Source: Bdellovibrionales bacterium (GTDB taxonomy: Bacteria; Bdellovibrionota; Bdellovibrionia; Bdellovibrionales; DASUEL01). From it: DNA of 39,634 nt. Positions within the stretch are counted from its first letter, which is position 1. Every line of letters begins with the position of its first letter. The position numbers and the translations under genes are program-made. Below, in pieces: positions 162-32,384 of this stretch. The DNA lies in the NCBI GenBank assembly GCA_050250255.1, contig JBFWOZ010000027.1, positions 1 through 39,634 of the forward strand, in the 5' to 3' direction. Below the pieces are notes generated by a model. It was not told where the DNA came from and did not search any database. It saw only the letters and a list, made by a program, of their open reading frames with translations.

Positions 162-1172
162 ATGAAGAATATAAGAGACGATGAACTTTTGAGTTTGATC
201 AGATCTAAAGTTCAAACCGAAAGAAACCTTACGCTTGAAATTATTGAACTCCTTCAAGAAATTCGGGATCGGCGGCTTCATCTTCAGCGTGGGTATTCGT
301 CGCTTCATGAATTTTGTGTAAAAGAGTTGAAATATTCTGATGGGGCGGCTTATCGGCGGATCAAGGCGATGAAACTTGTGGAGGAGATGCCGGAAGCCAT
401 AAAGTCTATTGAGTCGGGGAGCCTTTCGCTGACAACTGCAAGCCAGTTGCAAAATGTCTTTGAATCAAAAATGAAAATGCAAACGCCTTTCACGCGTGTT
501 GAGAAGGTTGAACTTTTTCAGCAGGTGCAAAACCAATCGCGTCAGGAAGTAGAACGTACCATTTCGAAAGTTTGCCCTGATGTGGTGAAAACTTTTGAGA
601 AGGTGAGACCTATTAATGATTCGCAAGTAAAAGTGGAGCTCATTCTTGATGGAAAGCTTTATGCAAAACTTGAAAAACTTAAAAAACTCACATCACACAA
701 AAATGGAAATTTGGTTGAGCTTATTGAGCATTTGGCAGATCAAGAATTGAAGAAGTGCGATCCGGGGATGAAAGTTTTGAAACAGAGAACACGCTTAGTA
801 AAGTCGGGAAATTCCGTATCAACCTTAAAAGTAGATACTTCAGAAAACACAGCTTCGCCAGAGAAGCTCAATGCTGAATCTCATCTACCAGCACGGCCTA
901 AGCGTAATGCACGTACTCGTTATATTCCTTCAGTTGTAAAGCAAACTGTTTGGATGCGCGATCAGGGGCGCTGCGCCTTTATTGATCCGCTCACGAAGCA
1001 TAGGTGCGATTCGAATCATCGGATTCAATTCGAACATATAAAACCTTTTGCAGTTGGTGGAGAGAACACGATTCAAAATCTTAAACTTCTCTGTGCGAAT
1101 CATAATACTTTAAGTGCCGTTAAATTTTATGGACGCAGTCGGATGGAAAAATATCAGAAAAGGATGAATTAA
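162..1172 (+). CDS. HNH endonuclease with N-terminal DUF222-like helical region
   Basis: SD aaggag before ATG. C-terminal RDQGRC...C...FEHIKPFAVGG...NLKLLCANHN HNH/Zn motif. N-terminal GYSSLHEFC...YSDGAAYRRI segment typical of the myxobacterial/Bdellovibrio HNH family. Confidence 0.85.
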   Translation: MKNIRDDELLSLIRSKVQTERNLTLEIIELLQEIRDRRLHLQRGYSSLHEFCVKELKYSDGAAYRRIKAMKLVEEMPEAIKSIESGSLSLTTASQLQNVFESKMKMQTPFTRVEKVELFQQVQNQSRQEVERTISKVCPDVVKTFEKVRPINDSQVKVELILDGKLYAKLEKLKKLTSHKNGNLVELIEHLADQELKKCDPGMKVLKQRTRLVKSGNSVSTLKVDTSENTASPEKLNAESHLPARPKRNARTRYIPSVVKQTVWMRDQGRCAFIDPLTKHRCDSNHRIQFEHIKPFAVGGENTIQNLKLLCANHNTLSAVKFYGRSRMEKYQKRMN

Positions 1173-2220: not shown

Positions 2221-3528
2221 ATGCGTAGCTCAGGAAGAACTATTAACGGTCTTTTGTTGTCTTTGTCTCTACTCACAGTACTCACAAGCTGTACACATAA
2301 AGGGGAACGAAAACCTGCGAGCCAAGCACAGCAGCAAGAGAACGATGAAGTTCAGCTTGGATTTTTTGGTCAAGACGATCGCCTGCAGGCGATTCAAAAA
2401 GCGCAACTCATTCAGCGCCGGCCTATGGGTTCAATTAACATTGTGAAAGGCCCTGAGCAAAAAGCGGGTAAGAAGAACGTCCTTCGGTTTAATGATCGCG
2501 TGACCTGTCAGTTTACAAAGCCTGGCTCAGAGATGGGTGGCGCGACTCCTAAATACAAATGTGTCATCACGAAAATTGAACGTGACGGAAAAGCCGTAAC
2601 AGTTCTTCCTAACGACGAAGTGAAAGTGAAATTCGGGAAAGACAATCTCGAAATCTACGCCGAACCTGCAGCAACACGACTTTTTTGGGCTATGGGATTT
2701 TTTGCCGATACGGTGATTCCCGTAACGGTCATTTGTGAAAATTGTCCGAAGGATCCAGCGAAAGATAAAGACCCTGCCGTAGGACAAACACGTGCGGAAG
2801 AAATTGCTTTGATCGAGCGTAAATTTTCTGGTGAAACCATGGAACAATTCAACATGGAAGATCAAGGCTGGACATGGCGTGAGTTTGGTCTCAACACGAA
2901 AAATGCAGCGGCGACAAAAGATGCTCTCTCACTTCTTGCAGCTTTCGTAGGTCATGGGGATAACAAACCTCCGCAGCAACGTCTTGTCTGCAGCAAAAAT
3001 AAAATCAAAGTCGATGCGACTAACAAAAAAACCACTTGTGCAGATCCTAAAATGTTTATTCAAGACTTAGGATCTACCCTCGGAGGAGCTGGAAAGTTCA
3101 CGACGGAAACGGCAAAAATGAACTTAAAACATTGGGCCAACAAACCAGATCATACTATTTGGAAGGATTCTGCGAAGTGTGAAGCCCGTCTGTCGAAGAG
3201 CATGTCAGCCAAAGATGGAATTGGCGACCCGGTCATTAGCGAAGAAGGTCGTCGCTATTTAGGGGCGCTTCTTTGTCAGTTGAGCACTCAGCAAATCCAT
3301 GATCTTTTTAAGGTCGCACGTGTTGAGCAAATGCCTGTTTCTGATGAGGGCACCGCATTTGCCACAAATAGCATTGATAACTGGGTGAGAGTATTTAAAG
3401 AAAAACGCGAACAAATTGTAGATCGCCCGGAATGTACTTGGAATAAAAAACCTAAAACGGCAAAACCGTTTGATGCAAAAACTTGCCAAGAATTAGTTGC
3501 GCGCACACACGGAGTGAATGCTCCATGA
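2221..3528 (+). CDS. Lipoprotein with atypical protein-kinase-like motifs (HipA/CotH/PI3K-like superfamily candidate)
   Basis: Start moved to ATG 2221 (SD aggag 2211-2215). Lipobox LTSC. Ordered motifs: GGATPK (Gly loop), VKVK (beta3 Lys), EPAATRL (alphaC Glu), HGDNKPPQ (catalytic loop), QDLG (DFG equivalent). Confidence 0.7.
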   Translation: MRSSGRTINGLLLSLSLLTVLTSCTHKGERKPASQAQQQENDEVQLGFFGQDDRLQAIQKAQLIQRRPMGSINIVKGPEQKAGKKNVLRFNDRVTCQFTKPGSEMGGATPKYKCVITKIERDGKAVTVLPNDEVKVKFGKDNLEIYAEPAATRLFWAMGFFADTVIPVTVICENCPKDPAKDKDPAVGQTRAEEIALIERKFSGETMEQFNMEDQGWTWREFGLNTKNAAATKDALSLLAAFVGHGDNKPPQQRLVCSKNKIKVDATNKKTTCADPKMFIQDLGSTLGGAGKFTTETAKMNLKHWANKPDHTIWKDSAKCEARLSKSMSAKDGIGDPVISEEGRRYLGALLCQLSTQQIHDLFKVARVEQMPVSDEGTAFATNSIDNWVRVFKEKREQIVDRPECTWNKKPKTAKPFDAKTCQELVARTHGVNAP

Positions 3529-4706
3529 TCAGAGCGCCAAAACTAAAAATACTTCTTCTTTTTATCATGGCGTTCTTCTTTATGAGCTGCCAAACCTCTC
3601 CTACGAAGTCAGCACGTTCCATAGCGACGGAGACACAAGGTGGAAGACGTGTGAGCCTGGCCGCTCTCTTTCGTAAGCCGGGTTGGGAATATGTGACGGC
3701 TGGCGAGCTCTCGAAATATCAAAATCTTTGGGCTATCAGCGATATCCATGGTGAATCCGAGAAACTTGTTAAAATTTTAGTGAAAGCAGGACTTGTCACA
3801 CCCACTTGCCAGCCTACAAAATGCCAATGGAAATCTCCTAGCTCAGCGCGCGGCCAGCTTCTGATCGTTGTTGGCGATAATATCAATAAAGGTCCTGACA
3901 GCGTTGGAGTGATCAGGCTTTTAGCAGATCTACAAACACAGGCCGCTTCCAAAAAAGGAAAAGTGATTTTGCTTTTAGGAAATCACGAAGCAGAAATTCT
4001 TGCCAACCTGAAGGGCACAAACAAAGAAACTGATGAGTTAGCAAATAACGCTAACGAAACCCGCCATTTAGATTGGTTAGGTGGCGAGAGAAAACTTGGA
4101 ACAGCAATTAAATTTAGTGAATTGAGGGATGAGAGTCGCTTTGGCAGAGTATTAAGAGAATTCTCTGTTGGAGCGGTTGTTGGAACATGGATGTTCGCTC
4201 ATTCCGGCTTTATTCAATCACCGACCACCCTCCCAGCACTCACGGAGTTCATTGGGGATGTCGGGCAAAAACAAGCGGCTGGATCTGCAGCGGCGAAAAG
4301 ACAAAACTTTGAGGAGAGTCAGAGGCAATATTCTAAAATTGCTGACGAAAGAGAAACCCTAGCTTCTCTCATTTCGGAAAGGGATTGGACCAAGAAAAAC
4401 AATCCACGTGGCAGTATGAAAGAGAAGCTCGATCTCCTCGGCTTGGATGCTCTTTTCGTTGGACACGATCCTGGTGCTTTGAACGATCAAGGTCGAATTG
4501 CAATTTATGATGGTTGGCTTACAAAACTCGATGCGGGAATGAATAACGAAATGTCCTATTCAGATGGGCGCATATTAAAATGTCCTATCCCTTCAGGTGG
4601 CTCTCTTCGTTTGATGAAAGATGCAAAGGAATCCCATTGTAAACAGGTCGCCCCCGAGAGTCGCACCGTAGGCGGCGAAGTGTTAATTCCTCTCGTCGAT
4701 GAATAG
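3525..4706 (+). CDS. Lipoprotein metallophosphoesterase, Shewanella-like PPP phosphatase type
   Basis: ATG 3525 overlaps the upstream stop (ATGA), SD ggag 3511-3514. Lipobox FMSC. Motifs SDIHG, GDNINKG, LGNHE, AHSG, VGHD and LDAG ((I/L)DxG). Confidence 0.85.
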   Translation: MIRAPKLKILLLFIMAFFFMSCQTSPTKSARSIATETQGGRRVSLAALFRKPGWEYVTAGELSKYQNLWAISDIHGESEKLVKILVKAGLVTPTCQPTKCQWKSPSSARGQLLIVVGDNINKGPDSVGVIRLLADLQTQAASKKGKVILLLGNHEAEILANLKGTNKETDELANNANETRHLDWLGGERKLGTAIKFSELRDESRFGRVLREFSVGAVVGTWMFAHSGFIQSPTTLPALTEFIGDVGQKQAAGSAAAKRQNFEESQRQYSKIADERETLASLISERDWTKKNNPRGSMKEKLDLLGLDALFVGHDPGALNDQGRIAIYDGWLTKLDAGMNNEMSYSDGRILKCPIPSGGSLRLMKDAKESHCKQVAPESRTVGGEVLIPLVDE

Positions 4707-8672: not shown

Positions 8673-9779
8673 ATGAAGCAGGATCATTTTTGGGGAAAAC
8701 TCTGTGTACTCGGATTAGTTTTAACAGCTCTTGGTTGTTCCAATGGATTTCAAACATCAGGAACGGTCGGTAGTACGGTAAAGCCCGCCAACTTCGATCC
8801 CAAGCTCAGTCTCGATATTTCTGTTAATCAATCCAATGTAAGTTCGGATCTCTCTAAAGTGACCCTTGTGGGTACTTGTAATAAATCAACCTATCCTAAT
8901 CATATTATTCAATGGGAATTAAGAACGGGAGTCACTTACACTGGTGCTGAATCCAATATTTGTCAAAACGGTCGTTTTGCATTTCAAGTGCCTCTCGCCG
9001 GTAGAAGTATTCCTTCCAATACCATTACACTAGCACTCAAAATGTTGGGCTATAATTCCAGCGGCAAATCTTATCAGAGCGATGTGGATTCTATCCAATA
9101 CACCATTCAGAGTGGCGGCGGAACAACCGGTGGATCTACTGGAGGTTCTACGGGTGGATCTACCGGTGGTAGCACTGGCGGAAGTACCGGTGGAAGTACG
9201 GGTAACAGCGGACCAACAGGCGGCTGCGTAGATCCCCAAGTAGAAGCATTTTGTCGTGCAGGCGGAAATCCACCGAATGTGATGGGAATCCTGAACTCTC
9301 TGGGCTCTCAGTATCCTAACGAACTCAATCGTTGTAATCGTCACAATTATGAATTCTCCCACATTGCAGTGAATGAATTAAGAAAGCATGACCAACGCTG
9401 GGGCTTAAACTGGGTACGTGGAAATTATGGAGATGAGACCGGCGACGTTATCGGCTACTACTACGGTCCGGGCGCTCCTCAAAACAACAGTCCTTTTACC
9501 GTCATCATTGATTTTATTAATAGCTGTGGGGGCAATGAAAGTCTTGTATGGGGCGTTCATGCAGCCTCGAATTACCAAAGGTGTTGTAACCCTGAACCTA
9601 CGGCTCGATGGACGATTGAACCTCTTGCGGGCAACGCTGGTGGTGCATGTCTAGGAAGTGGCGGACAGGTGCGCAACGGTTACGATTCACAACAAAACTG
9701 TAATGCGAGCTGGAGCAACAATCCTGCTCATACGCCGTGTGTTCAGGTTCAGTCTTGCTGGACGCCTACAAACTATTAG
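8673..9779 (+). CDS. Lipoprotein: beta-rich N-domain, (GGST)6 linker, Cys-rich C-terminal domain of unknown function
   Basis: SD aggag, lipobox ALGC, Gly/Ser/Thr linker and multiple Cys. Confidence 0.8.
   Translation: MKQDHFWGKLCVLGLVLTALGCSNGFQTSGTVGSTVKPANFDPKLSLDISVNQSNVSSDLSKVTLVGTCNKSTYPNHIIQWELRTGVTYTGAESNICQNGRFAFQVPLAGRSIPSNTITLALKMLGYNSSGKSYQSDVDSIQYTIQSGGGTTGGSTGGSTGGSTGGSTGGSTGGSTGNSGPTGGCVDPQVEAFCRAGGNPPNVMGILNSLGSQYPNELNRCNRHNYEFSHIAVNELRKHDQRWGLNWVRGNYGDETGDVIGYYYGPGAPQNNSPFTVIIDFINSCGGNESLVWGVHAASNYQRCCNPEPTARWTIEPLAGNAGGACLGSGGQVRNGYDSQQNCNASWSNNPAHTPCVQVQSCWTPTNY
9129..9200 (+). repeat. Coding tandem repeat (GGST)x6
   Basis: 12-nt units with synonymous codon variation. Confidence 0.9.
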
Positions 9780-10770
9780 GCAATTTTAATCGATAAAGAT
9801 GGGACGGCTTGGCGGGGTCATCCGCGTCGTCCACCAAATAAATCATTTCTTCAGTACCTGAAGAATCAACGTAGATACCCTCAGCTTTCACATCGGGCGA
9901 GAGACGGCCAAGAATTTTAAAATCACCTTTTTTCTGTTTTTCATTTTCTTCAAGAATTGCGAGAACCGAACCTTTGACCTCTCCATCCTTGTACGTTGAC
10001 ATTGTGTTCTCTGCGGCAGCAAGCAGTAAAATGCCTTTTCGTGAGTTCGCTGCATCTGTAATAGAGAGTCTTACTTTATCGAGTTTTCCAATTTTGAGTA
10101 ACCGAAATTTTAATAGCGAATGATCCCATTTTTTATTCTTAAGAAGAGCAATAAATTCTTTTACTGGTAATTCAAAAATACCACTCATTCCTTTTTTTCC
10201 GTTACCTCGTTGAAAAAGGTGAACTTTATTTTTATGGATAAGCGCACCTTCAATGTTGAGCTCATCGATATATTTTTGAAAATGTTTATAGAAGGGGGCG
10301 AAATCAATCGTTTGGGGCTGATCTAGATCAGATTTATTTTTAAAAGGAATTAATGCGGCTTGCTGCCTCTGCGGAGTAGAGCCTGAGGGGACAGCCAAGA
10401 AGGCTCCATGTGGCTCAAAATCTTCTGCGGAAAATAAAAGTGCCGATTCAAAATCAGACTTCACTTTTTTTCGTTCGACGTTGTTTGCTGGCAAACTTTT
10501 CGAAATTAAAGGAATCACTTCGAGTTTGGATTTTTCCGCAAAGCGAAAGAGAGAATTCTCATCGTCTGAAATAATATAAAAATGAGAATCCTTTTTTACA
10601 AGTCCGCTGGCTGCGGACACGTGTGGGGGACGGCCTTTTTCTAAAGATTTTTCTAAAAGAAGGGGTTTCATTTTCTCGAGAACAAGAATGTTTTTTTTAT
10701 TTGCGTTCGCAGGCAAGGATTGAAGCATAAGAGCCGCAAAAAGCGTAATAGGAAGTAAGTTTGTTTTCAT
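9766..10770 (-). CDS. Secreted beta-propeller-like protein (DUF6929/DUF3616-like)
   Basis: Start moved to ATG 10770. Signal peptide (ANA). Motifs SAASGL, SDFES, SGST..R, NIEGA, FQRGNG, KAEGI and DDADDP. Confidence 0.6.
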   Translation of the reverse strand: MKTNLLPITLFAALMLQSLPANANKKNILVLEKMKPLLLEKSLEKGRPPHVSAASGLVKKDSHFYIISDDENSLFRFAEKSKLEVIPLISKSLPANNVERKKVKSDFESALLFSAEDFEPHGAFLAVPSGSTPQRQQAALIPFKNKSDLDQPQTIDFAPFYKHFQKYIDELNIEGALIHKNKVHLFQRGNGKKGMSGIFELPVKEFIALLKNKKWDHSLLKFRLLKIGKLDKVRLSITDAANSRKGILLLAAAENTMSTYKDGEVKGSVLAILEENEKQKKGDFKILGRLSPDVKAEGIYVDSSGTEEMIYLVDDADDPAKPSHLYRLKLPNSL

Positions 10771-10891
10771 AGTTTCTATAGAGAAACAGAGTCCTCGTAT
10801 CCTGGAAAGATTAAAGTAATTCCATAGTCCAAGGTCTAGAATTAGGGCTGCGGCCAAGACAAAAAAGGGAGCTTTATGGTGGGGTAAGGAG

Positions 10892-13939: not shown

Positions 13940-14338
13940 ATGTTTAAGCTCATGTTCGCACTTATTGTTGGAATGACCTTTGTCTTTCAAAACTGTAGTC
14001 AGGTCAATTTCGACAAAGCATCGGTTGGAACAACGGGTGCTAATAATGCGACTGGAACAGGCGGATCCACTGGTGGGTCAACCGGAGGTTCTACTGGTGG
14101 TAGCACTGGTGAACCTATGACAGCCCAACAAACTTGTGAAAGTAGTGGGGGCGTATGGCATGGTACGAGCTGCTATGCTCAATTTTTCTGTGAGGCTCCG
14201 GACAATCTTTTTACTCAAAAATTAAATGCATTAGGAATGACAAATTGTACGGGTTCTGTGAAGTGTACGAACTGTTGTGGATCTTATGGCGCACTGGATG
14301 GGACCGACTGGAACTGGCGCTCTTGTGCCTACCCTTAA
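13940..14338 (+). CDS. Small FQNC lipoprotein with (GGST)4 linker and Cys-rich C-terminal module
   Basis: SD aggag; leader ending FQNC; repeat at 14060..14107; 8 Cys in the C-terminal domain. Confidence 0.82.
   Translation: MFKLMFALIVGMTFVFQNCSQVNFDKASVGTTGANNATGTGGSTGGSTGGSTGGSTGEPMTAQQTCESSGGVWHGTSCYAQFFCEAPDNLFTQKLNALGMTNCTGSVKCTNCCGSYGALDGTDWNWRSCAYP
14060..14107 (+). repeat. Coding tandem repeat (GGST)x4
   Basis: Read directly; synonymous codons vary between units. Confidence 0.9.
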
Positions 14339-17132: not shown

Positions 17133-19844
17133 TTAATGTGGCAACATACTTTCTGATGGTAAAAGGGAGGACGTCCCAAAGTGGGCGGTCGGCAGCCCAA
17201 ATGTGGGAACGTGGGGCGTAGGTATGTTAAAACTCTCTGTCGCCACCGCCTGGTATTTTTTCAATATTTTTTGCATCTTTTCCTTCTCATCAAAGAAGAC
17301 AATGATCAGTTCGTCGTCTTGCATTTCTTGAATGGCCGTTTCGACGGCCTTCTCTTCGTCCAATACAATTTTGAACGGCTTTTTAGGGTCTACTTTATTT
17401 ACGATGGATTTTAATAAAAGAGGGATTTCGGAAGGCTTCCGGCCTCTTAAGTCATGATCATCTCTTGCAACAATCTTGTCGAAGTTTTGGGCTGCGATTT
17501 CTAAAGATTTTCGGATGAGTTCATCATTTCGATCCCCTGGAACTCCAACGACACCTGTCACTCTTCTGGGCCAATGTTGGGCCATCCCACTTATCGCAGT
17601 GAAGGCGGCAGGATTATGTCCATAATCAATAATTAAATAACCCTTAGGAAGCTTGAAAAGGTTAACGCGCCCGTTGTTGTGATGAATTGCATGAAACTCA
17701 AATAGAGCTTGCTTAATAGCATAAACATTCATGTTTTGGGCGAGTGCTGTGGCGACGGAGGCCATGACATTTTCTACTTGGAATTTCGCTAGTCCTCCCA
17801 GTGTGAGAGGAATATCCGCCACTTTCGCAAATGATTTCGCGATGCCATCTCGTGAATAATAAATCCATAGCCCATCCGTGAAAAGGGCTATTCCCCCTGC
17901 TCGCTGATGCTCTTTTATGAGTGGATTGTTTTTGTCAGTGGAAAAGAGAATGACGGCTTCGCGACCACGTTTTTCAATTTGGGCTCTTGCCATATCAGCA
18001 AGAAGAGCATCCTCCGCATTTAAAATAAGTATACCTTGAGGCGAAAGACAATCAACAATGAGTGATTTAATTCGTAAAATGTCTTCGAGGGTTTCAATCC
18101 CATCTTGTCCAATATGGTCTTCTGCAATGTTTGTGATTACGGCGACATCACATTGATCAAATCCGAGGCCACGACGAACGATTCCGCCGCGAGCCGTTTC
18201 TAGGACGGCAATATCAACTGCTGGATCATTGAGCACAACTTGCGCGGAGGTAGGTCCAGAAGTATCTCCGCTCATTACTTTTTGAGAACCAATATAGATG
18301 CCGTCAGAACTTGTAAAACCTACGGTGCCTAGTTTACTGAGAATAAAACTTGTGAGTCTTGAGACCGTTGTTTTTCCATTTGTACCCGTGATGGCAATAA
18401 CTGGAATACGGACCGGTTCCTCTTCTGGAAAGACGGTTGCTAAAATGGCGCTGCCCACATCGCGCGGTTTTCCCATTGAAGGAAAAATATGCATACGTAA
18501 ACCAGGGCTTGCATTAAGTTCTATGATACCGAGCTCTTGGTCTAATGACTTAGAGATGTCTTCGGCGATCAGATCAACACCACAGACATCAAGAGCAATG
18601 GCAGCGGCCGCTCTTTCGCAGAGCAATCGAATGTCAGGGTGAATTTCATCGGTGACATCTATAGCGTACCCGCCGGTAGATAAATTCGCAGTTTCTCTTA
18701 AAACGATCGATTCACCTTTGGCAGGGATATCTTCGAGTGTCAGTCCTTTACGATTTAAAAAATTTCGCAGAGCTTCGTCTATTTTAATCATCGTCATTGG
18801 CATTTCGTGTCCGGAGCCTCGAAGTGGGTTTAAATTTTCTTTCTCAATGAGTTGCTCAATGGAAAGTTGATTGTCACCTACAACGGTAGGTGGTAGGCGC
18901 TGTGACGCGGCGACCACTTTCTGATTCACGACTAGGACACGATAGTCTTTCCCACGAAGATATTGCTCGACTAAAATCGATGAACGAATTTTTTGTGCGA
19001 AAGAAAAAGCTTTTTTTATTTGTTCTGGAGTAGTGACATTCAGTGTGATTCCACGTCCTTGCTGAGCATCGAGAGGTTTTACCGCAACGGCACCACCAAA
19101 ATCTTCGAGCGCCTGCAGCGCCTCTTGTTCTGATCTCACTACAAAGCCTTTTGGAACTTTAATTCCTGCATTTTCCAGAAGTTGTTTGGTGAGGTTTTTA
19201 TCTTGGGCCAATTCTACGGAAATATAACTCGTCTGTTCGGTAGTGGTGGCTTGAATGAATTTTCTTTTCTTCCCGTAACCTAATTGAATAAGACTTGAAT
19301 CGTTCAAACGTTTCCAAGGAATATTTCTGCGAATCGCCGCATCGATAATCGACTGAGTGCTGGGACCAAAAGCCTCAGCGGCCACGATTTCTTTTACTTT
19401 TTTCATTTCTATTTCAAAGTGGGGAAATGGTTTATGTTCAGCAAGAGCTTTGGCAATATCTGTGGCAATATGTAATAGCTGTTTCATTCCTTTTTCTGAC
19501 TTGTAGCGAATAATGATTTTATAGACACCTTCGCGCCCACCATAAATGGTTTTTCCATAACCCACTTCAATGCCAGCTAAAGTGCTTAGCTCAAGAGCGA
19601 TATGCTCAATAATATGTCCAAAGTAGGTTCCACGATGGAGTCGTTCGACAAAACCCCCTTCGTAACCCGGCGAACAGCGATGAGAATGGAGCCCAGGGAG
19701 CATTTCCAGGAGGGCGGGAATAAACCCTTCGATTTTTTCACTGGATATTTCTGCATAATATCCTAAATCCAAAGTCATAACCATGACGGACTTACGATGA
19801 TAAATGTTAGGACCTACGATAGTTTGAATGTTTTGAATTTTCAT
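17133..19844 (-). CDS. cphA: Cyanophycin synthetase CphA1
   Basis: N domain (GPN...HxC...HIIEH), ATP-grasp (VKPLD..QGRG, ANLSTGG, ELNASPG) and Mur-ligase domain (ITGTNGKTT, ETARGG, DYGHN); 903 aa. Confidence 0.96.
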   Translation of the reverse strand: MKIQNIQTIVGPNIYHRKSVMVMTLDLGYYAEISSEKIEGFIPALLEMLPGLHSHRCSPGYEGGFVERLHRGTYFGHIIEHIALELSTLAGIEVGYGKTIYGGREGVYKIIIRYKSEKGMKQLLHIATDIAKALAEHKPFPHFEIEMKKVKEIVAAEAFGPSTQSIIDAAIRRNIPWKRLNDSSLIQLGYGKKRKFIQATTTEQTSYISVELAQDKNLTKQLLENAGIKVPKGFVVRSEQEALQALEDFGGAVAVKPLDAQQGRGITLNVTTPEQIKKAFSFAQKIRSSILVEQYLRGKDYRVLVVNQKVVAASQRLPPTVVGDNQLSIEQLIEKENLNPLRGSGHEMPMTMIKIDEALRNFLNRKGLTLEDIPAKGESIVLRETANLSTGGYAIDVTDEIHPDIRLLCERAAAAIALDVCGVDLIAEDISKSLDQELGIIELNASPGLRMHIFPSMGKPRDVGSAILATVFPEEEPVRIPVIAITGTNGKTTVSRLTSFILSKLGTVGFTSSDGIYIGSQKVMSGDTSGPTSAQVVLNDPAVDIAVLETARGGIVRRGLGFDQCDVAVITNIAEDHIGQDGIETLEDILRIKSLIVDCLSPQGILILNAEDALLADMARAQIEKRGREAVILFSTDKNNPLIKEHQRAGGIALFTDGLWIYYSRDGIAKSFAKVADIPLTLGGLAKFQVENVMASVATALAQNMNVYAIKQALFEFHAIHHNNGRVNLFKLPKGYLIIDYGHNPAAFTAISGMAQHWPRRVTGVVGVPGDRNDELIRKSLEIAAQNFDKIVARDDHDLRGRKPSEIPLLLKSIVNKVDPKKPFKIVLDEEKAVETAIQEMQDDELIIVFFDEKEKMQKILKKYQAVATESFNIPTPHVPTFGLPTAHFGTSSLLPSESMLPH

Positions 19845-19884
19845 ACATCCTTTATTTGCTCGGCGAATGGGTTTTCGCTGTCTT

Positions 19885-19902
19885 TAGCAGAAAGCTTGCC
19901 AA
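19885..19902 (-). promoter_or_regulatory. sigma54-type promoter candidate for cphA
   Basis: Minus strand ttGGcaagctttctGCta, i.e. TGGCA...TGC with exact 10-nt spacing. Confidence 0.6.
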
Positions 19903-20081
19903 ACTTTGTGAAAATGAATGGCCTTAGACTTTGTGCTGATGAGGCATGTTGTCACATCATGGGTTTTTCTGCCCCAACCTACAATTCAGTTGCCTTTCAA
20001 TAGCCCTCTTCTTTGTGCACAGCAGTTGCAAAGAAGACGAACGAAGTTTCCTCAAAACCAAAAAAGAAAGGGTAATTTCTA

Positions 20082-20633
20082 ATGACAATTTATGAAGCAC
20101 TTGAAACTGATCATCGTAAAGTTAAACAATTATTAATTAGACTTGTTGGCATAACAGATAAAAATGCAAGCGAGCGTCATGACCTTATTTCACAGATTCG
20201 AGATGAATTGATCCCACACGCTCGTGCTGAAGAATCTATTTTTTATAACAGTATGCGTGAGTTAGAATCTGGCAATGAAGAAGTTATGCATGGATATAAA
20301 GAACATATGGAAGCGGAAACCTTACTTCGGATGCTCCAAGTACGTGACAAGATTGATATGGAGTGGAAAAAAACTGCTCAACAATTAAAAGACGCTCTTG
20401 AGCACCACATTCAGGAAGAAGAAAGTAAAATTTTTTCGGTAGCCCGCCGACTTTTTACAGAAGAAGAAGCTCGAATGATGGGCCAGGCATTTGAAAAATT
20501 AAAAATGGAAGTAAAAGATGAAGGATTCATGAAGACAACCGTGGACTTGGTCACAAATCTTATGCCGCCTCGTTTGACGTCTCTTTTTAAATCCAAGGGA
20601 TCGAAATCACAATCGATAGGCCGCACGGCTTAA
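20082..20633 (+). CDS. Hemerythrin/HHE cation-binding domain protein
   Basis: L..DH, HARAEE..FY, EH and HHIQEEE..IF motifs. Confidence 0.9.
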   Translation: MTIYEALETDHRKVKQLLIRLVGITDKNASERHDLISQIRDELIPHARAEESIFYNSMRELESGNEEVMHGYKEHMEAETLLRMLQVRDKIDMEWKKTAQQLKDALEHHIQEEESKIFSVARRLFTEEEARMMGQAFEKLKMEVKDEGFMKTTVDLVTNLMPPRLTSLFKSKGSKSQSIGRTA

Positions 20634-20710
20634 TTTTTTACGAGCTAAAAGATATATATGTACATAGCTCTCACGTTTAAAAGATAATTCACTCCAAGGG
20701 CGTGAGAGTT

Positions 20711-21592
20711 ATGACAATTGCGAAAAAATCTAAAACAAAACCTACAAAAAAAAACAATGTTCAAAAAGAGCTTATTAATCAAAAGTTAAGAACGAGAAAA
20801 GCTCATAAAGCTAAGGGTGTCCTCATTATCATTGGTGGTAATGAAGACAAAGAGCAGCAGATGGACATACTGAAGCTCGTAGCTCAAAGAGCGGGTAGAG
20901 GGAAAATTGTCGTCGTAACTGCGGCAAGTGAGATTCCTCACGAAGTTTGGCCAATATATCGGAACGTTTTTAAAAGTTTTAATGTAGACTCAGCTCATTT
21001 ACATATTGAACAGCCAGCGGATTATTCAAGCAAACATTACGAAACCATTTTTGATGGGGCCACTGCCGTATTTTTTACGGGAGGGGATCAGCTTAAGATC
21101 ACAACCAAAATTGGAGGGTCAATGATTTTTGGTCGCATACGAGAGATTTTTAAAAAGGGTGGTCTCGTTGCCGGAACATCGGCCGGGGCGGCGATCATGG
21201 GTGAGCTTATGTTGGTAGGTACTGAAAATACAGAATCCCATAAAGTTGGTCATTGGATGATGGCACCAGGATTAGGGTTTACAAAAAGTATTATCATTGA
21301 TCAGCACTTTGCTCAACGCGCACGCATTGGCCGACTTCTTAAAGCCATCGCAGTCAACCCTGGAATTTTGGGTGTGGGTATTGATGAAAACACTGCGATC
21401 GTTGTAGAAAATGAAGGTTTTCAGGTGGTTGGTGAAAACGCGGTCTACGTCATTGACGGAACCCATATTTCTTATACGAATGTCGCGGAGGCCAGTCTGC
21501 AACAAGCAATGTCGATGCATGATGTACGGTTACACATACTTTCCAACGGTGAATTTTTTGATCTCTCGACTCGGCAGGCACGCAGCTCTTAA
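20711..21592 (+). CDS. cphB: Cyanophycinase (peptidase S51)
   Basis: IIGGNEDK, FTGGDQ, GTSAGA (Ser), IDQHF (His) and GIDENT (Glu). Start is ATG 20711 or GTG 20702. Confidence 0.93.
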   Translation: MTIAKKSKTKPTKKNNVQKELINQKLRTRKAHKAKGVLIIIGGNEDKEQQMDILKLVAQRAGRGKIVVVTAASEIPHEVWPIYRNVFKSFNVDSAHLHIEQPADYSSKHYETIFDGATAVFFTGGDQLKITTKIGGSMIFGRIREIFKKGGLVAGTSAGAAIMGELMLVGTENTESHKVGHWMMAPGLGFTKSIIIDQHFAQRARIGRLLKAIAVNPGILGVGIDENTAIVVENEGFQVVGENAVYVIDGTHISYTNVAEASLQQAMSMHDVRLHILSNGEFFDLSTRQARSS

Positions 21593-24961: not shown

Positions 24962-27289
24962 ATGCAAAATACTGCCAATATAAAAACAGAGGTCCAGCTC
25001 TGTAATCACTGTGGTCGCACCTTTAACACAGGGTTGCACCAATATGGTGTCTATTGTTGTGCCGGCTGTCGTGCGGTAGCTCATCTTCTAAATCAAAAAA
25101 AATTAGGCCACTTTTACGATCTAGAAAAATCCTCTTTGCTTGATATACCAAAAATTGAAACAGAATTTTTATATTTAGATGACACCAATATCTTGGAATC
25201 ACTTGGCACGAGCAAAAATCGCATGAAGTTTTTTGTTGCAGGATTAGATTGCACAGCATGTGTTTGGTTAATCGACCAAATTCCTCACTATGCTTCGTCC
25301 ATCGAGAAAACCTGGACCGACTTTGGCAGCTCTATTGTAGAAATTCAGTTGTCCGAAGGTGCAAAGTTTTCAGATGCAGCAAAAGCCCTTTCGTCTTTTG
25401 GTCTCAATCCAAAGCCAATTTTATTTGTGGGTGAGAGCGATAAGCTATTAGAAGACGAATCAAAAGTGAGTTTATCACGAATAGCAGTAGCCGCATTTTG
25501 TATGGGTAATATCATGTTATTTGCGATTTCAATATATGCGGGTGTGGATGGAGTGCTGAAGACCGTATTTCAGTGGTTGATGCTCGCCCTATTTTTACCA
25601 ACGGCCACTTACAGTGCATTTCCGATTTATCGCAACTGTATTACCGCATTAAAAATGGGACGGATACATATCGATCTCCCTATTGCTATAGCGATACTCG
25701 CAGGTTTTGTGATTAGTTTTTATGAGCTCTTAATGGGACGGTCGGAAATCTATTTTGTTTCTCTTGCCATGCTCATATTTCTTCTTTTGGGATCAAGATA
25801 TTTGTTAAAAACGCTTCAGCAGAAACAAAACTTTCGTTTTCCACTTTTGAATTTCATTTACTCTGTGCCTGCCAAGCTGACTGATGGCCGGGTTGTCAGT
25901 GCCTTGAGTTTACAATCGGGTGATCAAATAACCTTGAGTGCATCAGATGCGGTGCCGGCTGATTGTAAAGTTGAGGCCGGTGAAGGGTGGCTCCATACCG
26001 CATCCTTAACTGGAGAGTCTCATCCGCAAAAAGTGGGAGTTGGAGATGAGGTGTTTGCCGGAACTCATCTTGTTGCAGGAAATTTAACTGCTCGAGTAGG
26101 GAAAACGACAAAAGAATCTCGCGTCGCAAAGTTACTTGAAGCGATTGACAATCATACAATTTCAAAAAGTTCCATGAACTCAAATGTGGATCTGTGGGCT
26201 CAGCGCTTCTTGATTGGTGTTTTTTTATTGAGCCTTGTTACAGTCGTTGCATTTGCTCTGATGGGTAAATTCGAAGTCGGCCTCTATCGCGCGCTGACTT
26301 TAATGATCGTGACATGTCCATGCGTATTTGCAATGGCAATTCCCTGGACATTAAAACTTGCCATTCAAAACGCTGCCGACGAAGGTGTGTTCGTAAAAAA
26401 TCCAGAACTTTTCGAACGATTGGCGAACGCAAAAAAAATTATTTTTGATAAAACCGGCACACTCACTCAGGGTTTTTTGGAAGTAAAAGAATTTCAAGTT
26501 CTGATCGTGCATCCCCATTTACGCACTATTGCCTACGCATTGGAGCGGCACTCGGAGCACCCAGTGGCAAAATCCATTATCAGATTTTTAGATTCAGAAG
26601 TTGTTTCCGAAATTCCGCAAATTACCCATATCGGGACAATTGGGAGAGGCGGTGCTCAAGGAATTGTAGAAGGTCAACTTTGGACAATTCGGCCAATCCA
26701 GGAAGGCACTACGCCGGTTATTGGTTTGTTTCTCGATCAACAGTTAATGGCAAAGTTTTTATTGGAAGACAGACTTCGTACAGACACGAGCCAAGCCTTA
26801 GCCGATCTTCGTAATTTTGGAGCTCGTTTTAGTATTCTTTCTGGTGATCAAACAAGTGTAGCGGAAAATGTTGGGCATGAGTTAGGCATTGTGGAAATTC
26901 ACTCTACACAATCTCCTGAAGACAAACTCACTCATATAAAAGCAAATCCAGGGGCTGTGTTTGTTGGGGATGGTAACAATGATGCTCCTGCAATGGCGGC
27001 CGCCAACGTTTCCATCGCCGTGGCCGGTAGTCTTGAGGCGAGTCTCAAGGTTTCTGATGCATATTTCGCTCGGCCTGGGCTACAGCCCCTCGTGAAACTC
27101 TATCTGCTTTCTCAGCATGCTATGTCGGTCATTCATACAAATCTTGTGTTTACAGCTGTTTATAATTTTGTGGGTCTATCTTTAGCGCTCACCGGACAAA
27201 TTACAGCTTTATGGGCGGCGCTTCTTATGCCGGCAAGTTCGTTAACCGTCACTCTTCATTCTCTCTATCGGATGAGAAGGAGTCGTTAG
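24962..27289 (+). CDS. ccoI: cbb3 assembly heavy-metal (Cu) P1B-type ATPase CcoI/FixI
   Basis: CNHC..CCAGC N-domain, CTAC HMA motif, LTGES, CPC, DKTGT, SEHP and GDGNND; operon context. Confidence 0.9.
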   Translation: MQNTANIKTEVQLCNHCGRTFNTGLHQYGVYCCAGCRAVAHLLNQKKLGHFYDLEKSSLLDIPKIETEFLYLDDTNILESLGTSKNRMKFFVAGLDCTACVWLIDQIPHYASSIEKTWTDFGSSIVEIQLSEGAKFSDAAKALSSFGLNPKPILFVGESDKLLEDESKVSLSRIAVAAFCMGNIMLFAISIYAGVDGVLKTVFQWLMLALFLPTATYSAFPIYRNCITALKMGRIHIDLPIAIAILAGFVISFYELLMGRSEIYFVSLAMLIFLLLGSRYLLKTLQQKQNFRFPLLNFIYSVPAKLTDGRVVSALSLQSGDQITLSASDAVPADCKVEAGEGWLHTASLTGESHPQKVGVGDEVFAGTHLVAGNLTARVGKTTKESRVAKLLEAIDNHTISKSSMNSNVDLWAQRFLIGVFLLSLVTVVAFALMGKFEVGLYRALTLMIVTCPCVFAMAIPWTLKLAIQNAADEGVFVKNPELFERLANAKKIIFDKTGTLTQGFLEVKEFQVLIVHPHLRTIAYALERHSEHPVAKSIIRFLDSEVVSEIPQITHIGTIGRGGAQGIVEGQLWTIRPIQEGTTPVIGLFLDQQLMAKFLLEDRLRTDTSQALADLRNFGARFSILSGDQTSVAENVGHELGIVEIHSTQSPEDKLTHIKANPGAVFVGDGNNDAPAMAAANVSIAVAGSLEASLKVSDAYFARPGLQPLVKLYLLSQHAMSVIHTNLVFTAVYNFVGLSLALTGQITALWAALLMPASSLTVTLHSLYRMRRSR

Positions 27290-27465
27290 TGGAAATCATA
27301 TTTTTTATGATTCCTGTGTCACTATTTTTGGGGCTCGGTTTTTTGGCGGCATTTTTATGGGCGAATAAGACGGGACAATTCGATGATCTGTCAGGACCTT
27401 CACACCGAATTATTTTTGAAGATGAAATATTAAACAGCGGGAGCTCTGATGAAAAAACAAAATGA
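27289..27465 (+). CDS. ccoS: cbb3-type oxidase maturation protein CcoS/FixS
   Basis: GTG start overlapping the ccoI TAG, SD aaggag; IPVSL...FLWA...GQFDDL motif; 58 aa. Confidence 0.92.
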   Translation: MEIIFFMIPVSLFLGLGFLAAFLWANKTGQFDDLSGPSHRIIFEDEILNSGSSDEKTK

Positions 27466-29584
27466 ATTACAAAACTATTATGACGACGACATAGTTAAGA
27501 AATTCCTTATAGCTACGATGATATTTGGAGTGATTGCTTTTTTGGTGGGCCTAGTGGCTGCGCTACAGCTCGCGGATTGGCGTTTCAATTTCAGCCTTCC
27601 GTGGCTGACATTCGGTCGCATTCGTCCTCTCCATACAAATGCGGCGATTTTCGCGTTTGCAGGGAATGCCATTTTTGCGGGCATCTATTATTCCACCCAA
27701 CGTTTGTGTAAAACTCGTCTCTTCAGTGACTTACTTTCGCAACTCCACTTTTGGGGGTGGCAATTCATTATCGCGGCAGCGGCGATTACTCTCCCGTTAG
27801 GTATTACCCAGAGCAAAGAGTACGCGGAGCTTGAGTGGCCGATCGACATCGCTATCACAATTGTGTGGGTTATCTTCGCCGTAAATTTTTTCGGAACTTT
27901 ATGGAGACGCAAAGAAAAACACATGTACGTGGCCATCTGGTTTTACATTGCCACAATTGTAACTGTCGCGGTTCTTCACATTGTGAATTCCATTGAAATA
28001 CCGGTGAGTCTCACCCAGAGCTATCCTGTCTATGCGGGAGTTCAGGATGCGTTGGTGCAGTGGTGGTATGGACACAATGCGGTTGCGTTCTTTTTGACCA
28101 CGCCTTTTTTGGGATTAATGTATTATTTTATTCCAAAGGCGTCGGGACGTCCTGTCTATAGCTATAAGCTCTCGATTATTCACTTTTGGTCTTTGGTGTT
28201 TATTTATATCTGGGCCGGTCCTCATCACCTACTTTACACAGCTTTGCCGGACTGGGCGCAAACGTTAGGAATGACTTTTTCGTTAATGCTTTGGGCGCCG
28301 AGCTGGGGCGGCATGATCAACGGACTTTTGACCCTGAGAGGGGCTTGGCATCGACTAAAAACCGAACCAATTCTCAAATTCTTTGCGGCCGCTGTTGTAT
28401 TTTACGGAATGGCAACATTCGAAGGACCGCTCCTTTCTATCAAGAGCGTAAGTTCCCTTGCTCACTATACGGATTGGATCGTTGCCCATGTTCATGGAGG
28501 AGCCTTGGGATGGAATGGTTTTATGACCATCGGAATGATTTACTATCTTGTTCCAAAACTCTGGAGAACAAATCTCTATAGTCAGAAGTGGGCAGAATAT
28601 CATTTTTGGATCGGAAGTGTTGGTATTCTCCTCTACATTATTTCTATGTGGACGGCGGGTATTACCCAAGGGCTTATGCTCCGAGCCGTTGATGATTCGG
28701 GTCGACTTGTCTATCCAGAATTTGTGCAAACAGTGATGACAATCGTTCCGCTTTATTGGGTTCGTGCCTTAGGCGGAACGATGTTTTTAGCTGGTTTCAT
28801 AATTATGATTGCCAATGTGATCAAAACTGTTGCTCATGCGCCTGTTCATGAATCTGAAGTCATTGATGCTGCAAAAATTCATGCTTCTAAAGGTCCCGAA
28901 ACAACACATCGAAAATTGGAAGCTACGGCCTTAATATTTACGGTCCTCACGATTCTGGCAATTCTGGTCGGATCAATTTTGGAAATTGTTCCGACCTTAC
29001 TCGTTCATACTTACGTCGCAACTAATAGTAAGGCTGTCCCATATACCGCTCTTGAACTCGCGGGTCGGGATCTTTATGTTCGAGAAGGTTGTTACGTTTG
29101 TCACTCGCAGATGATTCGACCAATGATTTCAGAAAAAATTCGTTACGGTGATCCATCGACTCTCGAAGATTCGCTTTATGATCGTCCGTTTCAATGGGGT
29201 TCTAAACGTACAGGCCCCGACCTTGCTCGTGTTGGAGGCAAATATCCAGATCTCTGGCATTTACGCCATATGAACAACCCTCGAGATGTGGTGTCTCAAT
29301 CGATCATGCCATCCTACTCTTGGTTACTTCGAGACAAAGTTAATTTCTCAATTCTGACAAAAAAACTTTCTGTCATGAAGTCACTTGGTGTTCCATATAC
29401 AGAATTAGAAGTGCAAGACGCAGCAGAAAGTGCACGTGCAGATGCACAAAAAATTGCAGCAGATTTGGAGTCACAAGGTGCGCCCAAAAGATTAGAGGAT
29501 AAAGAGATTGTCGCATTGATTGCGTATCTTCAACGGCTGGGGCGATCCGCAAAAACTTCAACCGCGAAGGATGGTGTGCAATGA
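27449..29584 (+). CDS. ccoN: cbb3-type cytochrome c oxidase subunits I+II fusion (CcoNO)
   Basis: RPLHTNA, WWYGHN, GPHH and HVH in CcoN; GRDLYVREGCYVCHSQMIRP and WGSKRTGPDL in CcoO; one 711-aa frame. Confidence 0.96.
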   Translation: MKKQNELQNYYDDDIVKKFLIATMIFGVIAFLVGLVAALQLADWRFNFSLPWLTFGRIRPLHTNAAIFAFAGNAIFAGIYYSTQRLCKTRLFSDLLSQLHFWGWQFIIAAAAITLPLGITQSKEYAELEWPIDIAITIVWVIFAVNFFGTLWRRKEKHMYVAIWFYIATIVTVAVLHIVNSIEIPVSLTQSYPVYAGVQDALVQWWYGHNAVAFFLTTPFLGLMYYFIPKASGRPVYSYKLSIIHFWSLVFIYIWAGPHHLLYTALPDWAQTLGMTFSLMLWAPSWGGMINGLLTLRGAWHRLKTEPILKFFAAAVVFYGMATFEGPLLSIKSVSSLAHYTDWIVAHVHGGALGWNGFMTIGMIYYLVPKLWRTNLYSQKWAEYHFWIGSVGILLYIISMWTAGITQGLMLRAVDDSGRLVYPEFVQTVMTIVPLYWVRALGGTMFLAGFIIMIANVIKTVAHAPVHESEVIDAAKIHASKGPETTHRKLEATALIFTVLTILAILVGSILEIVPTLLVHTYVATNSKAVPYTALELAGRDLYVREGCYVCHSQMIRPMISEKIRYGDPSTLEDSLYDRPFQWGSKRTGPDLARVGGKYPDLWHLRHMNNPRDVVSQSIMPSYSWLLRDKVNFSILTKKLSVMKSLGVPYTELEVQDAAESARADAQKIAADLESQGAPKRLEDKEIVALIAYLQRLGRSAKTSTAKDGVQ

Positions 29585-29754
29585 AACAGGTAGCGCTTAC
29601 CCAATTTCCTTGGCCTGAATTATCGATTGTTCCATTGATGATATTTTTTATTTTTTTCGTCGGAGTCATTGTCTGGGTCAGTTTGGATAAAAATAAGAGA
29701 AAATTTGAACAGGTGAGTTTGCTTCCATTGGAAGGAGAACAACATGAGCGATAA
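29581..29754 (+). CDS. ccoQ: cbb3-type oxidase small subunit CcoQ
   Basis: Translated by hand: MKQVALTQFPWPELSIVPLMIFFIFFVGVIVWVSLDKNKRKFEQVSLLPLEGEQHER*, single TM plus LPL. ATGA overlap with ccoNO. Absent from the ORF track. Confidence 0.85.
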   Translation: MKQVALTQFPWPELSIVPLMIFFIFFVGVIVWVSLDKNKRKFEQVSLLPLEGEQHER

Positions 29755-30301
29755 TGACAAAAATTTTGCAGATGACCACAGCTACGATGGAATTCAAGAA
29801 TTAGATAATCCACTTCCTCGTTGGTGGCTCTGGACTTTTTATATAACTGTTGTTTTTTCGGCCTTTTATATTCCTTATTATCATTTTTTGGGTGGGCAAA
29901 ATCCCATAGATGAATACCAATCCGATATAGCTAAGCTGGAAGCTGAAAAAAAGTCTGCTCCCTCTGAAGAAAATGGCGATCAAAAAATAATTGCTGCTCT
30001 AGGCGATGCGCAGGTGAAGGCGAAAGGTGCTTTCGTTTTTGATAGCAAGTGCGCTGTTTGTCACGGTAAAGAAGGGCAGGGAATTATTGGCCCGAACCTA
30101 ACAGATAATTATTGGATTAACGGTGACGGATCGCCCACAACAGTTGCGAAAGTTATTAATGAAGGAGTGCCGGCAAAAGGAATGCCTCCTTGGGCTTCGG
30201 TGCTACAGCCCGAAGAGTTAGTCCAGGTTGCGGTTTTTGTGGTTTCGCTCAAAGGATCCACACCGGCTAACCCTAAAGCACCTCAGGGCGAACTGAAATG
30301 A
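29744..30301 (+). CDS. ccoP: cbb3-type oxidase subunit III CcoP (single heme)
   Basis: HSYDGIQELDNPLPRWW N-terminus; one CAVCH; GPNLTD..W; GMPPW. Confidence 0.92.
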   Translation: MSDNDKNFADDHSYDGIQELDNPLPRWWLWTFYITVVFSAFYIPYYHFLGGQNPIDEYQSDIAKLEAEKKSAPSEENGDQKIIAALGDAQVKAKGAFVFDSKCAVCHGKEGQGIIGPNLTDNYWINGDGSPTTVAKVINEGVPAKGMPPWASVLQPEELVQVAVFVVSLKGSTPANPKAPQGELK

Positions 30302-31692: not shown

Positions 31693-32384
31693 TGATCGAG
31701 GAGTGGATGGAGGTCATTATAAAGTTATCACCTCTTGCAATGTCGATGGCAGTATTTACAGCGAGTCTTGTGGGAAGCTTACATTGTCTTGGAATGTGTG
31801 GACCACTACAGGTCGTTGTTGCTCCAACTCCAACAGAGTCTTTTGTTTATCATTCGGGGAGGTTCTTCAGTTATACGTTATTAGGCTTTTTCGCTGGCTA
31901 TTTTGGAGAAGTACTTTTTTCTGTAACGAGTTCAACATCTTTGGCTTGGCTGTCTGCCATTTCTTTCTCTGTGATGCTTTTCGTGATTGCGGTAAAGACT
32001 TTTGCAAGTAAATCAAAATTTCATTTTACATTTCAAACAAAGTTGTCGAATTGGATTTTTGTGCATGTGCTGTCGTTGGTTCAGCGTCCCGTACGCAGCT
32101 TGATTCTCGGTGTACTAACGCCGCTGCTACCCTGCGGCTGGTTACTTTCTTTTCTGCTAGGAGCAGCTCTGACACAAAAAGCAATTCATGGCGGATTGTT
32201 TATGGCAAGTTTTTGGTTGGGTACGCTGCCGGTCCTTGGCCTTCTGCCGATGATTCGAAAACATCTATTTAAGTTATTTGGTATGAAGACTCATCAGTTT
32301 GCGAGTGTACTTCTTTTGCTTACGGCACTGAGCCTGATCTGCGTGCGCATGCTCGTAAGTTATCAACATACGAGCTGTCACTAA
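31692..32384 (+). CDS. DsbD_2 / TauE-like membrane protein of cbb3 operons
   Basis: GSLHCLGMCGP, YHSGRFFSY, LLPCG and FWLGTLP; multiple TM helices. Confidence 0.85.
   Translation: MIEEWMEVIIKLSPLAMSMAVFTASLVGSLHCLGMCGPLQVVVAPTPTESFVYHSGRFFSYTLLGFFAGYFGEVLFSVTSSTSLAWLSAISFSVMLFVIAVKTFASKSKFHFTFQTKLSNWIFVHVLSLVQRPVRSLILGVLTPLLPCGWLLSFLLGAALTQKAIHGGLFMASFWLGTLPVLGLLPMIRKHLFKLFGMKTHQFASVLLLLTALSLICVRMLVSYQHTSCH

What the first reader, a model, noticed from the sequence alone, without database searches (positions are those of the whole stretch)
2221..4706. Coupled extracytoplasmic kinase-like / phosphatase lipoprotein pair: candidate envelope phosphorylation switch
Seen: two genes overlapping by ATGA (3525..3528), each with a lipoprotein signal (LTSC, FMSC) and several additional Cys. 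The first has the ordered kinase-fold motifs GGATPK (2536), VKVK (about 2620), E in EPAATRL, D-x-K-x-x-Q in HGDNKPPQ (2953) and DLG (3064). The second has the PPP/Shewanella-like metallophosphatase motif set. Known: exported atypical kinases exist (CotH, Fam20, HipA-like/PI3K-like effectors), but the periplasm is generally considered ATP-poor. Inference: this is a writer/eraser module for reversible phosphorylation of proteins, lipids or glycans outside the cytoplasm, or a kinase toxin with a phosphatase antidote. In a predatory lineage it could use prey-derived ATP. I know of no characterised system with this arrangement.
Basis: partly seen in the sequence, partly recalled or inferred. Interest (0 to 1): 0.78.

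Follow-up and report, generated by a model that had tools for sequence, protein, structure and literature searches.

The report
Exported kinase with swappable phosphatase partner
A Bdellovibrio-type bacterium carries two overlapping genes for a predicted lipoprotein kinase of an unnamed family and a predicted lipoprotein phosphatase, which likely add and remove phosphate outside the cytoplasm, although the genome shows no recognisable ATP exporter and most relatives of the kinase lack this partner.

Summary
Observation confirmed. ORF 2221-3528 has no Pfam or PDB sequence match. Its AlphaFold model (pLDDT 89.8) matches CtkA, PI4K-II, CotH, Fam20, MavQ and HipA (Z 10-12). The catalytic K/E/D residues are invariant in 113 homologs, nearly all with signal-like N-termini. 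ORF 3525-4706 is an intact Shewanella-like PPP phosphoesterase.

This exact pair is narrow. It is seen here and in one other Bdellovibrionales genome, and inferred for two more contigs; it is in 1 of 80 kinase loci and 0 of 93 other phosphatase loci. The theme is wider: other kinase clades sit beside, or fuse to, unrelated phosphatases (histidine, purple-acid-like, PAP2). Relatives of this phosphatase follow a different exported kinase-Omp85 protein.

Best reading: an envelope write/erase module with an interchangeable eraser (0.5). Substrate and ATP source are unknown. No NTT carrier was found in this 99%-complete genome, and four intact kinase paralogs stand alone. The toxin-antidote and prey-ATP ideas gain little support, since most relatives are soil Acidobacteriota. 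This scan had already noted related NTT/Omp85-linked systems on other DNA; this is a carrier-free sister family.

The parts
2221..3528 (+). Predicted exported atypical kinase (435 aa, P0001), HipA/CtkA/CotH/Fam20/PI4K-II-like fold, unnamed family
2221..2292 (+). Predicted lipoprotein signal peptide, lipobox LTSC, Cys24 codon at 2290
   Evidence: heuristic; Cys at the same place in the closest homologs P0003, P0005, P0006, P0010
2536..2553 (+). Gly-rich loop GGATPK; G107 and K111 invariant
2620..2664 (+). Beta3 Lys137 (VKVK) and helix-C region Glu144/Glu148; roles inferred from the fold
2953..2976 (+). Catalytic loop HGDNKPPQ; Asp247 inferred catalytic base, Gln252 (Asn in many relatives) inferred metal ligand
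3064..3072 (+). DLG, DFG-equivalent Asp282, invariant in 113 of 113 homologs and 137 of 137 representatives
3525..3528 (+). ATGA stop/start overlap (translational coupling inferred)
3525..4706 (+). Predicted lipoprotein Shewanella-like PPP metallophosphoesterase (393 aa, P0002); lipobox FMSC, Cys22 codon at 3588; motifs at 3738, 3873, 3978, 4194, 4458, 4527

Best explanation
The two genes likely encode a membrane-anchored, extracytoplasmic write/erase pair: a predicted atypical kinase that would transfer the terminal phosphate of ATP to an envelope substrate, and a predicted metal-dependent phosphoesterase that would remove it. Shown: overlap, fold prediction, conserved active-site residues and family-wide signal-like N-termini. 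Inferred: lipidation, shared compartment, activity and shared substrate. The eraser looks interchangeable, since different kinase clades carry different phosphatase folds. I think the acceptor is slightly more likely a lipid head group, glycan or small sugar than a protein (about 55:45). The grounds are the PAP2 fusions and partners from families I recall as broad phosphomonoesterases. ATP would have to come from outside (prey, lysed cells, leakage) or through an unrecognised exporter.
For: Model pLDDT 89.8, pTM 0.87. Top VIA-align rows: CtkA Z 12.0 (rmsd 4.3, 228 aligned), PI4K-IIalpha 11.1, CotH 10.6, Fam20 10.3, MavQ 10.3, HipA 9.9; all 50 listed rows are kinase-fold entries. Hydrophobic N-terminal stretch in 106 of 107 homologs with enough N-terminus and 124 of 133 representatives, against 0 of 14 and 5 of 44 for two cytoplasmic-looking partner families. 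Same gene order in L001. The top three homologs of each protein lie on contigs of equal length, 84562, 15934 and 58263; on the 15934 contig both lack the lipobox but keep a signal. 27 of 80 kinase loci have a phosphoesterase-family gene within 1.5 kb, with partner type following kinase clade. Three kinase-PAP2 fusions among 11 long representatives scanned. Relatives of P0002 follow another exported kinase-like/Omp85 gene in L108-L110 and face one in L192.
Against: The P0002-type partner is in 1 of 80 kinase loci and 0 of 44 further Bdellovibrionota kinase loci. No P0001-family kinase lies in 80 metagenome and 13 genome loci of P0002 relatives. Only 2 of those 44 loci have a clear phosphatase neighbour (L245, L248), plus one 2H phosphoesterase and three unverified CX5R-like genes. 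Four other intact paralogs in this genome lack such a partner. The commonest partner (48 of 80 loci) is an NHL/YWTD-like propeller without a signal and without phosphatase evidence. The Acidobacteriota histidine phosphatase has no signal (0 of 14), so it cannot share the kinase's compartment. No NTT carrier was found here by Pfam or a custom profile. Clades are few and related, so the counts are not independent.
Confidence: 0.5

Rival explanations
1. Scavenging module: the pair processes environmental or prey-derived nucleotides, polyphosphate or sugar/inositol phosphates at the cell surface. The kinase fold acts as a phosphotransferase or ATP-consuming enzyme and the phosphoesterase frees phosphate, with no regulatory switch.
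For: Partners span several phosphomonoesterase folds, including SdiA/phytase-like propellers, adjacent in L041 and L216 and fused in P0232. A VTC gene and DUF2252 genes occur beside some homologs. No ATP exporter was found.
Against: A kinase is not needed to release phosphate (general knowledge). VTC occurs at 1 of 44 loci. Most Bdellovibrionota homologs have no such neighbour.
Confidence: 0.17
2. Kinase toxin or effector aimed at other cells (prey, competitors, protists), with the adjacent phosphatase as self-protection.
For: The nearest folds include HipA, CtkA and MavQ. ATGA coupling. The genome has five intact paralogs, divergent from each other. Cytoplasmic partners beside an exported kinase in Acidobacteriota resemble immunity genes.
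Against: Most paralogs and homologs have no partner, which a self-toxic enzyme would need. No PADLOC match for six proteins tested. A lipid anchor limits delivery. GC near 0.45 against 0.437 for the genome gives no sign of a recent island. The family is mostly in Acidobacteriota, non-predatory as I recall.
Confidence: 0.15
3. Loose linkage: the kinase works alone, like its paralogs, and the phosphatase is an independent exported enzyme that joined the operon in one small clade.
For: The pair is limited to at most four records, and both families are usually found apart.
Against: Repeated adjacency and fusion with unrelated phosphatases. A rough background is 1-2% per locus (11 genes of four phosphatase Pfam families in 3.09 Mb; my arithmetic, an underestimate because Pfam misses divergent members).
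Confidence: 0.18

Closest known systems
CotH (Bacillus spore-coat kinase) and Fam20A/B/C secretory-pathway kinases
   Same: Same atypical kinase fold class (5jda Z 10.6; 5xom Z 10.3). Works outside the ordinary cytoplasmic setting. For CotH the ATP source is also called unanswered (PMC7821199, passages read).
   Different: No sequence match by Pfam or PDB profile; 9-13% structural identity. Lipoprotein signal in a diderm. Paired phosphatase, whereas the CotH paper knows no phosphatase for its substrates.
HipA/HipT, Helicobacter CtkA, Legionella MavQ, PI4K type II
   Same: Top structural matches (Z 9.6-12.0).
   Different: These are cytoplasmic toxins, host-directed effectors or eukaryotic lipid kinases (recalled, and entry titles). 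P0001 has a Sec-type signal, seven invariant Cys and no antitoxin-like neighbour.
Shewanella-like PPP phosphatases (Shelphs; Shewanella PPI)
   Same: Best PDB match of the P0002 subfamily (E 3e-19). GNHE, H(A/G)G-like and (I/L/V)D(S/T)G-like motifs as defined in PMC535813 (passages read).
   Different: GDxxNKG instead of GDxxDRG (shared with trypanosome 2qjc), LDAG instead of D(S/T)G, a lipobox, and an operon with a kinase. That paper says specificity cannot be predicted.
Omp85 'Metallo' subfamily (PF00149 + Omp85; PMC4104836) and the NTT/Omp85/exported-kinase clusters noted earlier in this scan
   Same: Exported kinase-like domain plus phosphoesterase. One NTT-adjacent kinase type is homologous to the P0001 family (hhalign probability 96%, E 3e-9). 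NTT operons hold distant P0002 relatives.
   Different: No barrel or carrier beside any P0001-type gene examined. The other two kinase types gave no significant profile match. The passages of PMC4104836 do not mention a kinase.

Membership tests
Protein kinase-like superfamily (HipA/CotH/Fam20/PI4K-II clade) | Bilobed kinase fold | tested here: met
   (predicted model)
Protein kinase-like superfamily (HipA/CotH/Fam20/PI4K-II clade) | Conserved beta3 Lys, helix-C Glu, catalytic Asp, metal-binding Asp in order | tested here: met
   K137, E144/E148, D247, D282 invariant in 113 of 113; spatial geometry not measured
Protein kinase-like superfamily (HipA/CotH/Fam20/PI4K-II clade) | ATP-dependent phosphotransfer | not testable with these tools
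   needs an assay
CotH, Fam20C or HipA Pfam families | Profile match to the family model | tested here: not met
   0 Pfam families for P0001 at E 0.1; no kinase family among 113 members. The Atlas gives only leads at 0.84.
PPP metallophosphoesterase, Shelph-like | DxH, GDxxD/N, GNHE, HxG, GH metal-binding motifs | tested here: met
PPP metallophosphoesterase, Shelph-like | (I/L/V)D(S/T)G motif and Shelph clade placement | tested here: inconclusive
   LDAG here, LDTG/LDSG in relatives; best PDB match Shewanella PPI; no tree built
Sec/SPII lipoprotein | Hydrophobic stretch then lipobox Cys | tested here: met
   heuristic only; FMSC is non-canonical; lipidation untested
NTT/Omp85-linked exported kinase cluster (earlier scan notes) | Adjacent NTT carrier and/or Omp85 barrel | tested here: not met
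   none adjacent; no NTT in the genome by two methods; TLC in 11 of 56 genomes searched (55 of them kinase-bearing), never beside the kinase
Toxin-antitoxin or effector-immunity pair | Obligate partner beside the toxin | tested here: not met
   4 other intact paralogs and most homologs lack this partner
Toxin-antitoxin or effector-immunity pair | Toxicity neutralised by the partner | not testable with these tools
   needs expression tests

The most novel reading that the evidence does not exclude
A large unnamed family of disulfide-bonded, exported bacterial kinases (2,192 clusters at 50% identity) runs reversible phosphorylation in the envelope. It has recruited at least four unrelated phosphatase folds as erasers and, in some tandems, a Fam20A-like pseudokinase partner. 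It does so without an ATP/ADP carrier, implying an unknown ATP route or a non-ATP donor such as polyphosphate or prey nucleotides.
Probability: 0.3. Interest if true: 0.85.

Novelty: new variant of a known kind. Interest (0 to 1): 0.6.

Why it matters
Kinases are not expected between the membranes of Gram-negative bacteria because ATP is thought scarce there (general knowledge). This two-gene unit is the smallest version of the idea: both halves should be soluble once the signals are removed and have clear residues to mutate. That makes periplasmic phosphorylation and its phosphate donor directly testable. Because the genome has no recognisable NTT carrier, it also tests whether the carrier seen in related clusters is needed.

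Tried and rejected
Sequence searches of P0001 against Pfam, NCBIfam, PDB and PADLOC gave no family. No relatives in viral contigs. The word-based search for fused forms of 922-2630 aa found none (weak evidence, since the genome itself holds a 1276-aa paralog). No RNA holder was listed. The promoter/terminator scan was at chance level for promoters and gave nothing decisive. The idea that the common propeller partner is a phytase or PhoX-like phosphatase was not supported: generic YWTD/NHL matches lead, and Bacillus phytase ranks 38th. The window's DUF6929 propeller showed no pairwise similarity to the L041 partner. The link to ribD downstream was dropped because it is not kept in L001. The tree is the quick one, with long-branch warnings. 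No CX5R-family match in PDB. Nine literature searches found no description of this family or pairing. 'Periplasmic ATP' had zero occurrences in the 12 papers listed. One review calls Serratia RtkS a 'periplasmic kinase' (PMC13584744, one passage); as I recall RtkS is a kinase regulator. Subscription journals and supplements were not seen.

Full report
Observation. The window holds a 435-aa ORF at 2221-3528 (P0001) and a 393-aa ORF at 3525-4706 (P0002) that overlap by ATGA. A joint kinase-motif pattern matches 2 of 14,606 six-frame ORFs of the genome, this gene and one paralog. The closest named relatives are Bdellovibrionales genomes, one in the same order (L001) and one in the same family (L006). 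The genome is 99.2% complete.

The kinase. P0001 has no Pfam, NCBIfam or PDB sequence match. It has 135 homologs in the word-based search, and a wider profile finds 2,192 clusters at 50% identity. The AlphaFold model from 113 sequences is confident (pLDDT 89.8). It matches CtkA (Z 12.0), PI4K-IIalpha (11.1), CotH (10.6), Fam20 (10.3), MavQ (10.3) and HipA (9.9), with a drop to 6.7 after rank 14; Foldseek agrees weakly. These Z values are close together and do not identify a substrate class. G107, K111, K137, E144, E148, D247, K249 and D282 are invariant in 113 of 113 homologs, as are seven cysteines, which fits disulfides in an oxidising compartment (inference). 106 of 107 homologs with enough N-terminal sequence (6 were too short) have a hydrophobic stretch, but only 24 have a lipobox by my loose pattern. 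Export is therefore general and lipid anchoring is mostly a feature of the near clade. The same heuristic scored 0 of 14 and 5 of 44 on two partner families.

The phosphatase. P0002 is a Metallophos-family protein with all metal-binding motifs. Its subfamily profile is closest to Shewanella PPI. PMC535813 (passages read) defines Shelphs and says the specificity of such enzymes cannot be predicted. 12 of 13 subfamily members have a signal-like N-terminus.

Is the pair conserved? Narrowly. L001 has the same order with a gap of about 25 bases. P0003/P0122 and P0004/P0123 lie on contigs of identical length, so adjacency there is inferred, not seen. Otherwise the P0002 type is beside 1 of 80 kinase loci, the best 80 of 357, and 0 of 44 further Bdellovibrionota kinase loci. 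No P0001-family kinase lies in 80 metagenome loci or 13 other genome loci of P0002 relatives, many of them short. The genome holds four more intact kinase paralogs without such a partner.

The wider pattern. Within 1.5 kb of the kinase in the 80 loci: an RHG-motif histidine phosphatase in 14; a second Metallophos type in 10, 7 of them with DUF2252; a PF04185 phosphoesterase in 3; the P0002 type in 1. That is 27 loci with a phosphoesterase-family gene. One more has an SdiA/phytase-like propeller, one has DUF2252 alone, 44 have only an NHL-like propeller, and 7 have none (4 of them truncated). Partner type follows kinase clade on a quick tree, so this is a handful of events, not 27. Of the 11 longest representatives scanned from the top 150, three are kinase-PAP2 fusions and one is a subtilase fusion. 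One carries a propeller 50% identical to an SdiA-family protein. In P0266 the kinase lies between a signal and the membrane segments of PAP2. In Bdellovibrionota the enrichment is modest: 2 clear phosphatase neighbours in 44 loci, one 2H phosphoesterase and three unverified CX5R-like genes, plus a DSP-family gene beside a distant paralog. My rough background is 1-2% per locus. Conversely, P0002 relatives follow an exported kinase-like/Omp85 protein in L108-L110 and face one in L192. The histidine phosphatase and the NHL propeller of Acidobacteriota have no signal peptide, which does not fit a same-compartment eraser for those clades.

ATP source. Earlier notes of this scan (unchecked AI notes used as leads) describe exported kinases with NTT carriers and Omp85 barrels on other DNA. 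I tested this. No TLC match was found in this genome by Pfam (whose controls did not ring) or by a profile built from 11 carrier sequences, including one from the same family. TLC matches occur in 11 of 56 genomes searched (55 of them kinase-bearing; one genome counted twice), never beside a P0001-family gene. One NTT-adjacent kinase type is homologous to this family (probability 96%); two other types gave no significant match. This locus is therefore a carrier-free sister of those systems. PMC5381601 (passages) reports NTTs in free-living bacteria and contains neither 'kinase' nor 'periplasm'. PMC4104836 (passages) describes Metallo-Omp85 proteins and has no occurrence of 'kinase'. PMC7821199 (passages) calls the ATP source of CotH unanswered and knows no phosphatase for its substrates. 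bioRxiv 2020.02.18.954925 (passages) was used for background on Fam20C and CotH; PMC9758233 was seen only as a listing.

Mechanism. Most likely (0.5) the two lipoproteins write and erase a phosphate on an envelope substrate, with external or unrecognised ATP supply; the activity, substrate and shared compartment are inferred. Rivals are loose linkage (0.18), surface phosphate/nucleotide scavenging (0.17) and toxin-antidote (0.15). The prey-ATP idea may hold for this lineage but not for a family found mostly in Acidobacteriota. Binding between the two proteins was not tested.

Verdict. The feature is real. It is an undescribed kinase family by my nine literature searches and a new variant of the CotH/Fam20 kind. 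The specific pair is rare, and the broader concept was already flagged by this scan elsewhere. Interest 0.6.

Noticed in passing
L002-L077 (34 of 80 loci); P0153, P0154; G000:C40:9536-10759: Tandem kinase paralogs. In the second-type copy read in full (L004) the catalytic loop reads HYHNA, without the Asp, like the own-genome C40 paralog (NHHNT). Two representatives fuse two kinase domains. Possibly an active kinase/pseudokinase pair like Fam20C/Fam20A (analogy recalled).
   Followed up: partly
e.g. L026:240-1178, L035:4550-5494 (48 of 80 loci): Highly conserved (64% mean identity) 312-aa NHL/YWTD-like propeller without a signal peptide, next to the kinase in one clade. Never found together with the histidine phosphatase or DUF2252 partners. 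Function unknown.
   Followed up: yes
L104, L105, L108-L111, L192/L229: P0002 relatives downstream of an HD/PycTM-like gene and an Omp85 protein; its kinase-like N-terminal domain is covered in L108-L110, and L192 has the kinase-Omp85 gene divergent.
   Followed up: partly
L221-L225: Acidobacteriota operons of exported Shelph-like phosphoesterase, NTT-family carrier and a 274-aa exported kinase-like gene of another family.
   Followed up: partly
L093:213-920, L235:2939-3622, L236:2806-3462: Unannotated exported protein with a CX5R-like motif beside three kinase homologs; no Pfam or PDB match.
   Followed up: partly
G000:C4:96146-97468, C40:9536-10759, C58:738-1868, C9:1-3828, C1 (L101:845-1578): Four more intact members of the kinase clan in this genome, one a protein of at least 1276 aa ending at a contig edge, plus one broken copy.
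   Followed up: partly
window 162-1172: 336-aa HNH-domain ORF with a weak IscB-model hit far under the cut-off; possibly mobile.
   Followed up: no
window 9766-10857: Exported DUF6929/DUF6910 protein 5 kb downstream; no detectable similarity to the SdiA-like kinase partner of L041.
   Followed up: partly
window 8673-9779 and 13940-14338: Lipoprotein-like ORFs with GGSTGGST repeats and no Pfam match.
   Followed up: no
window 17133-21592 and 24962-32384: Cyanophycin synthetase with a peptidase S51 gene, and a cbb3-type oxidase cluster with fused COX1-FixO.
   Followed up: no
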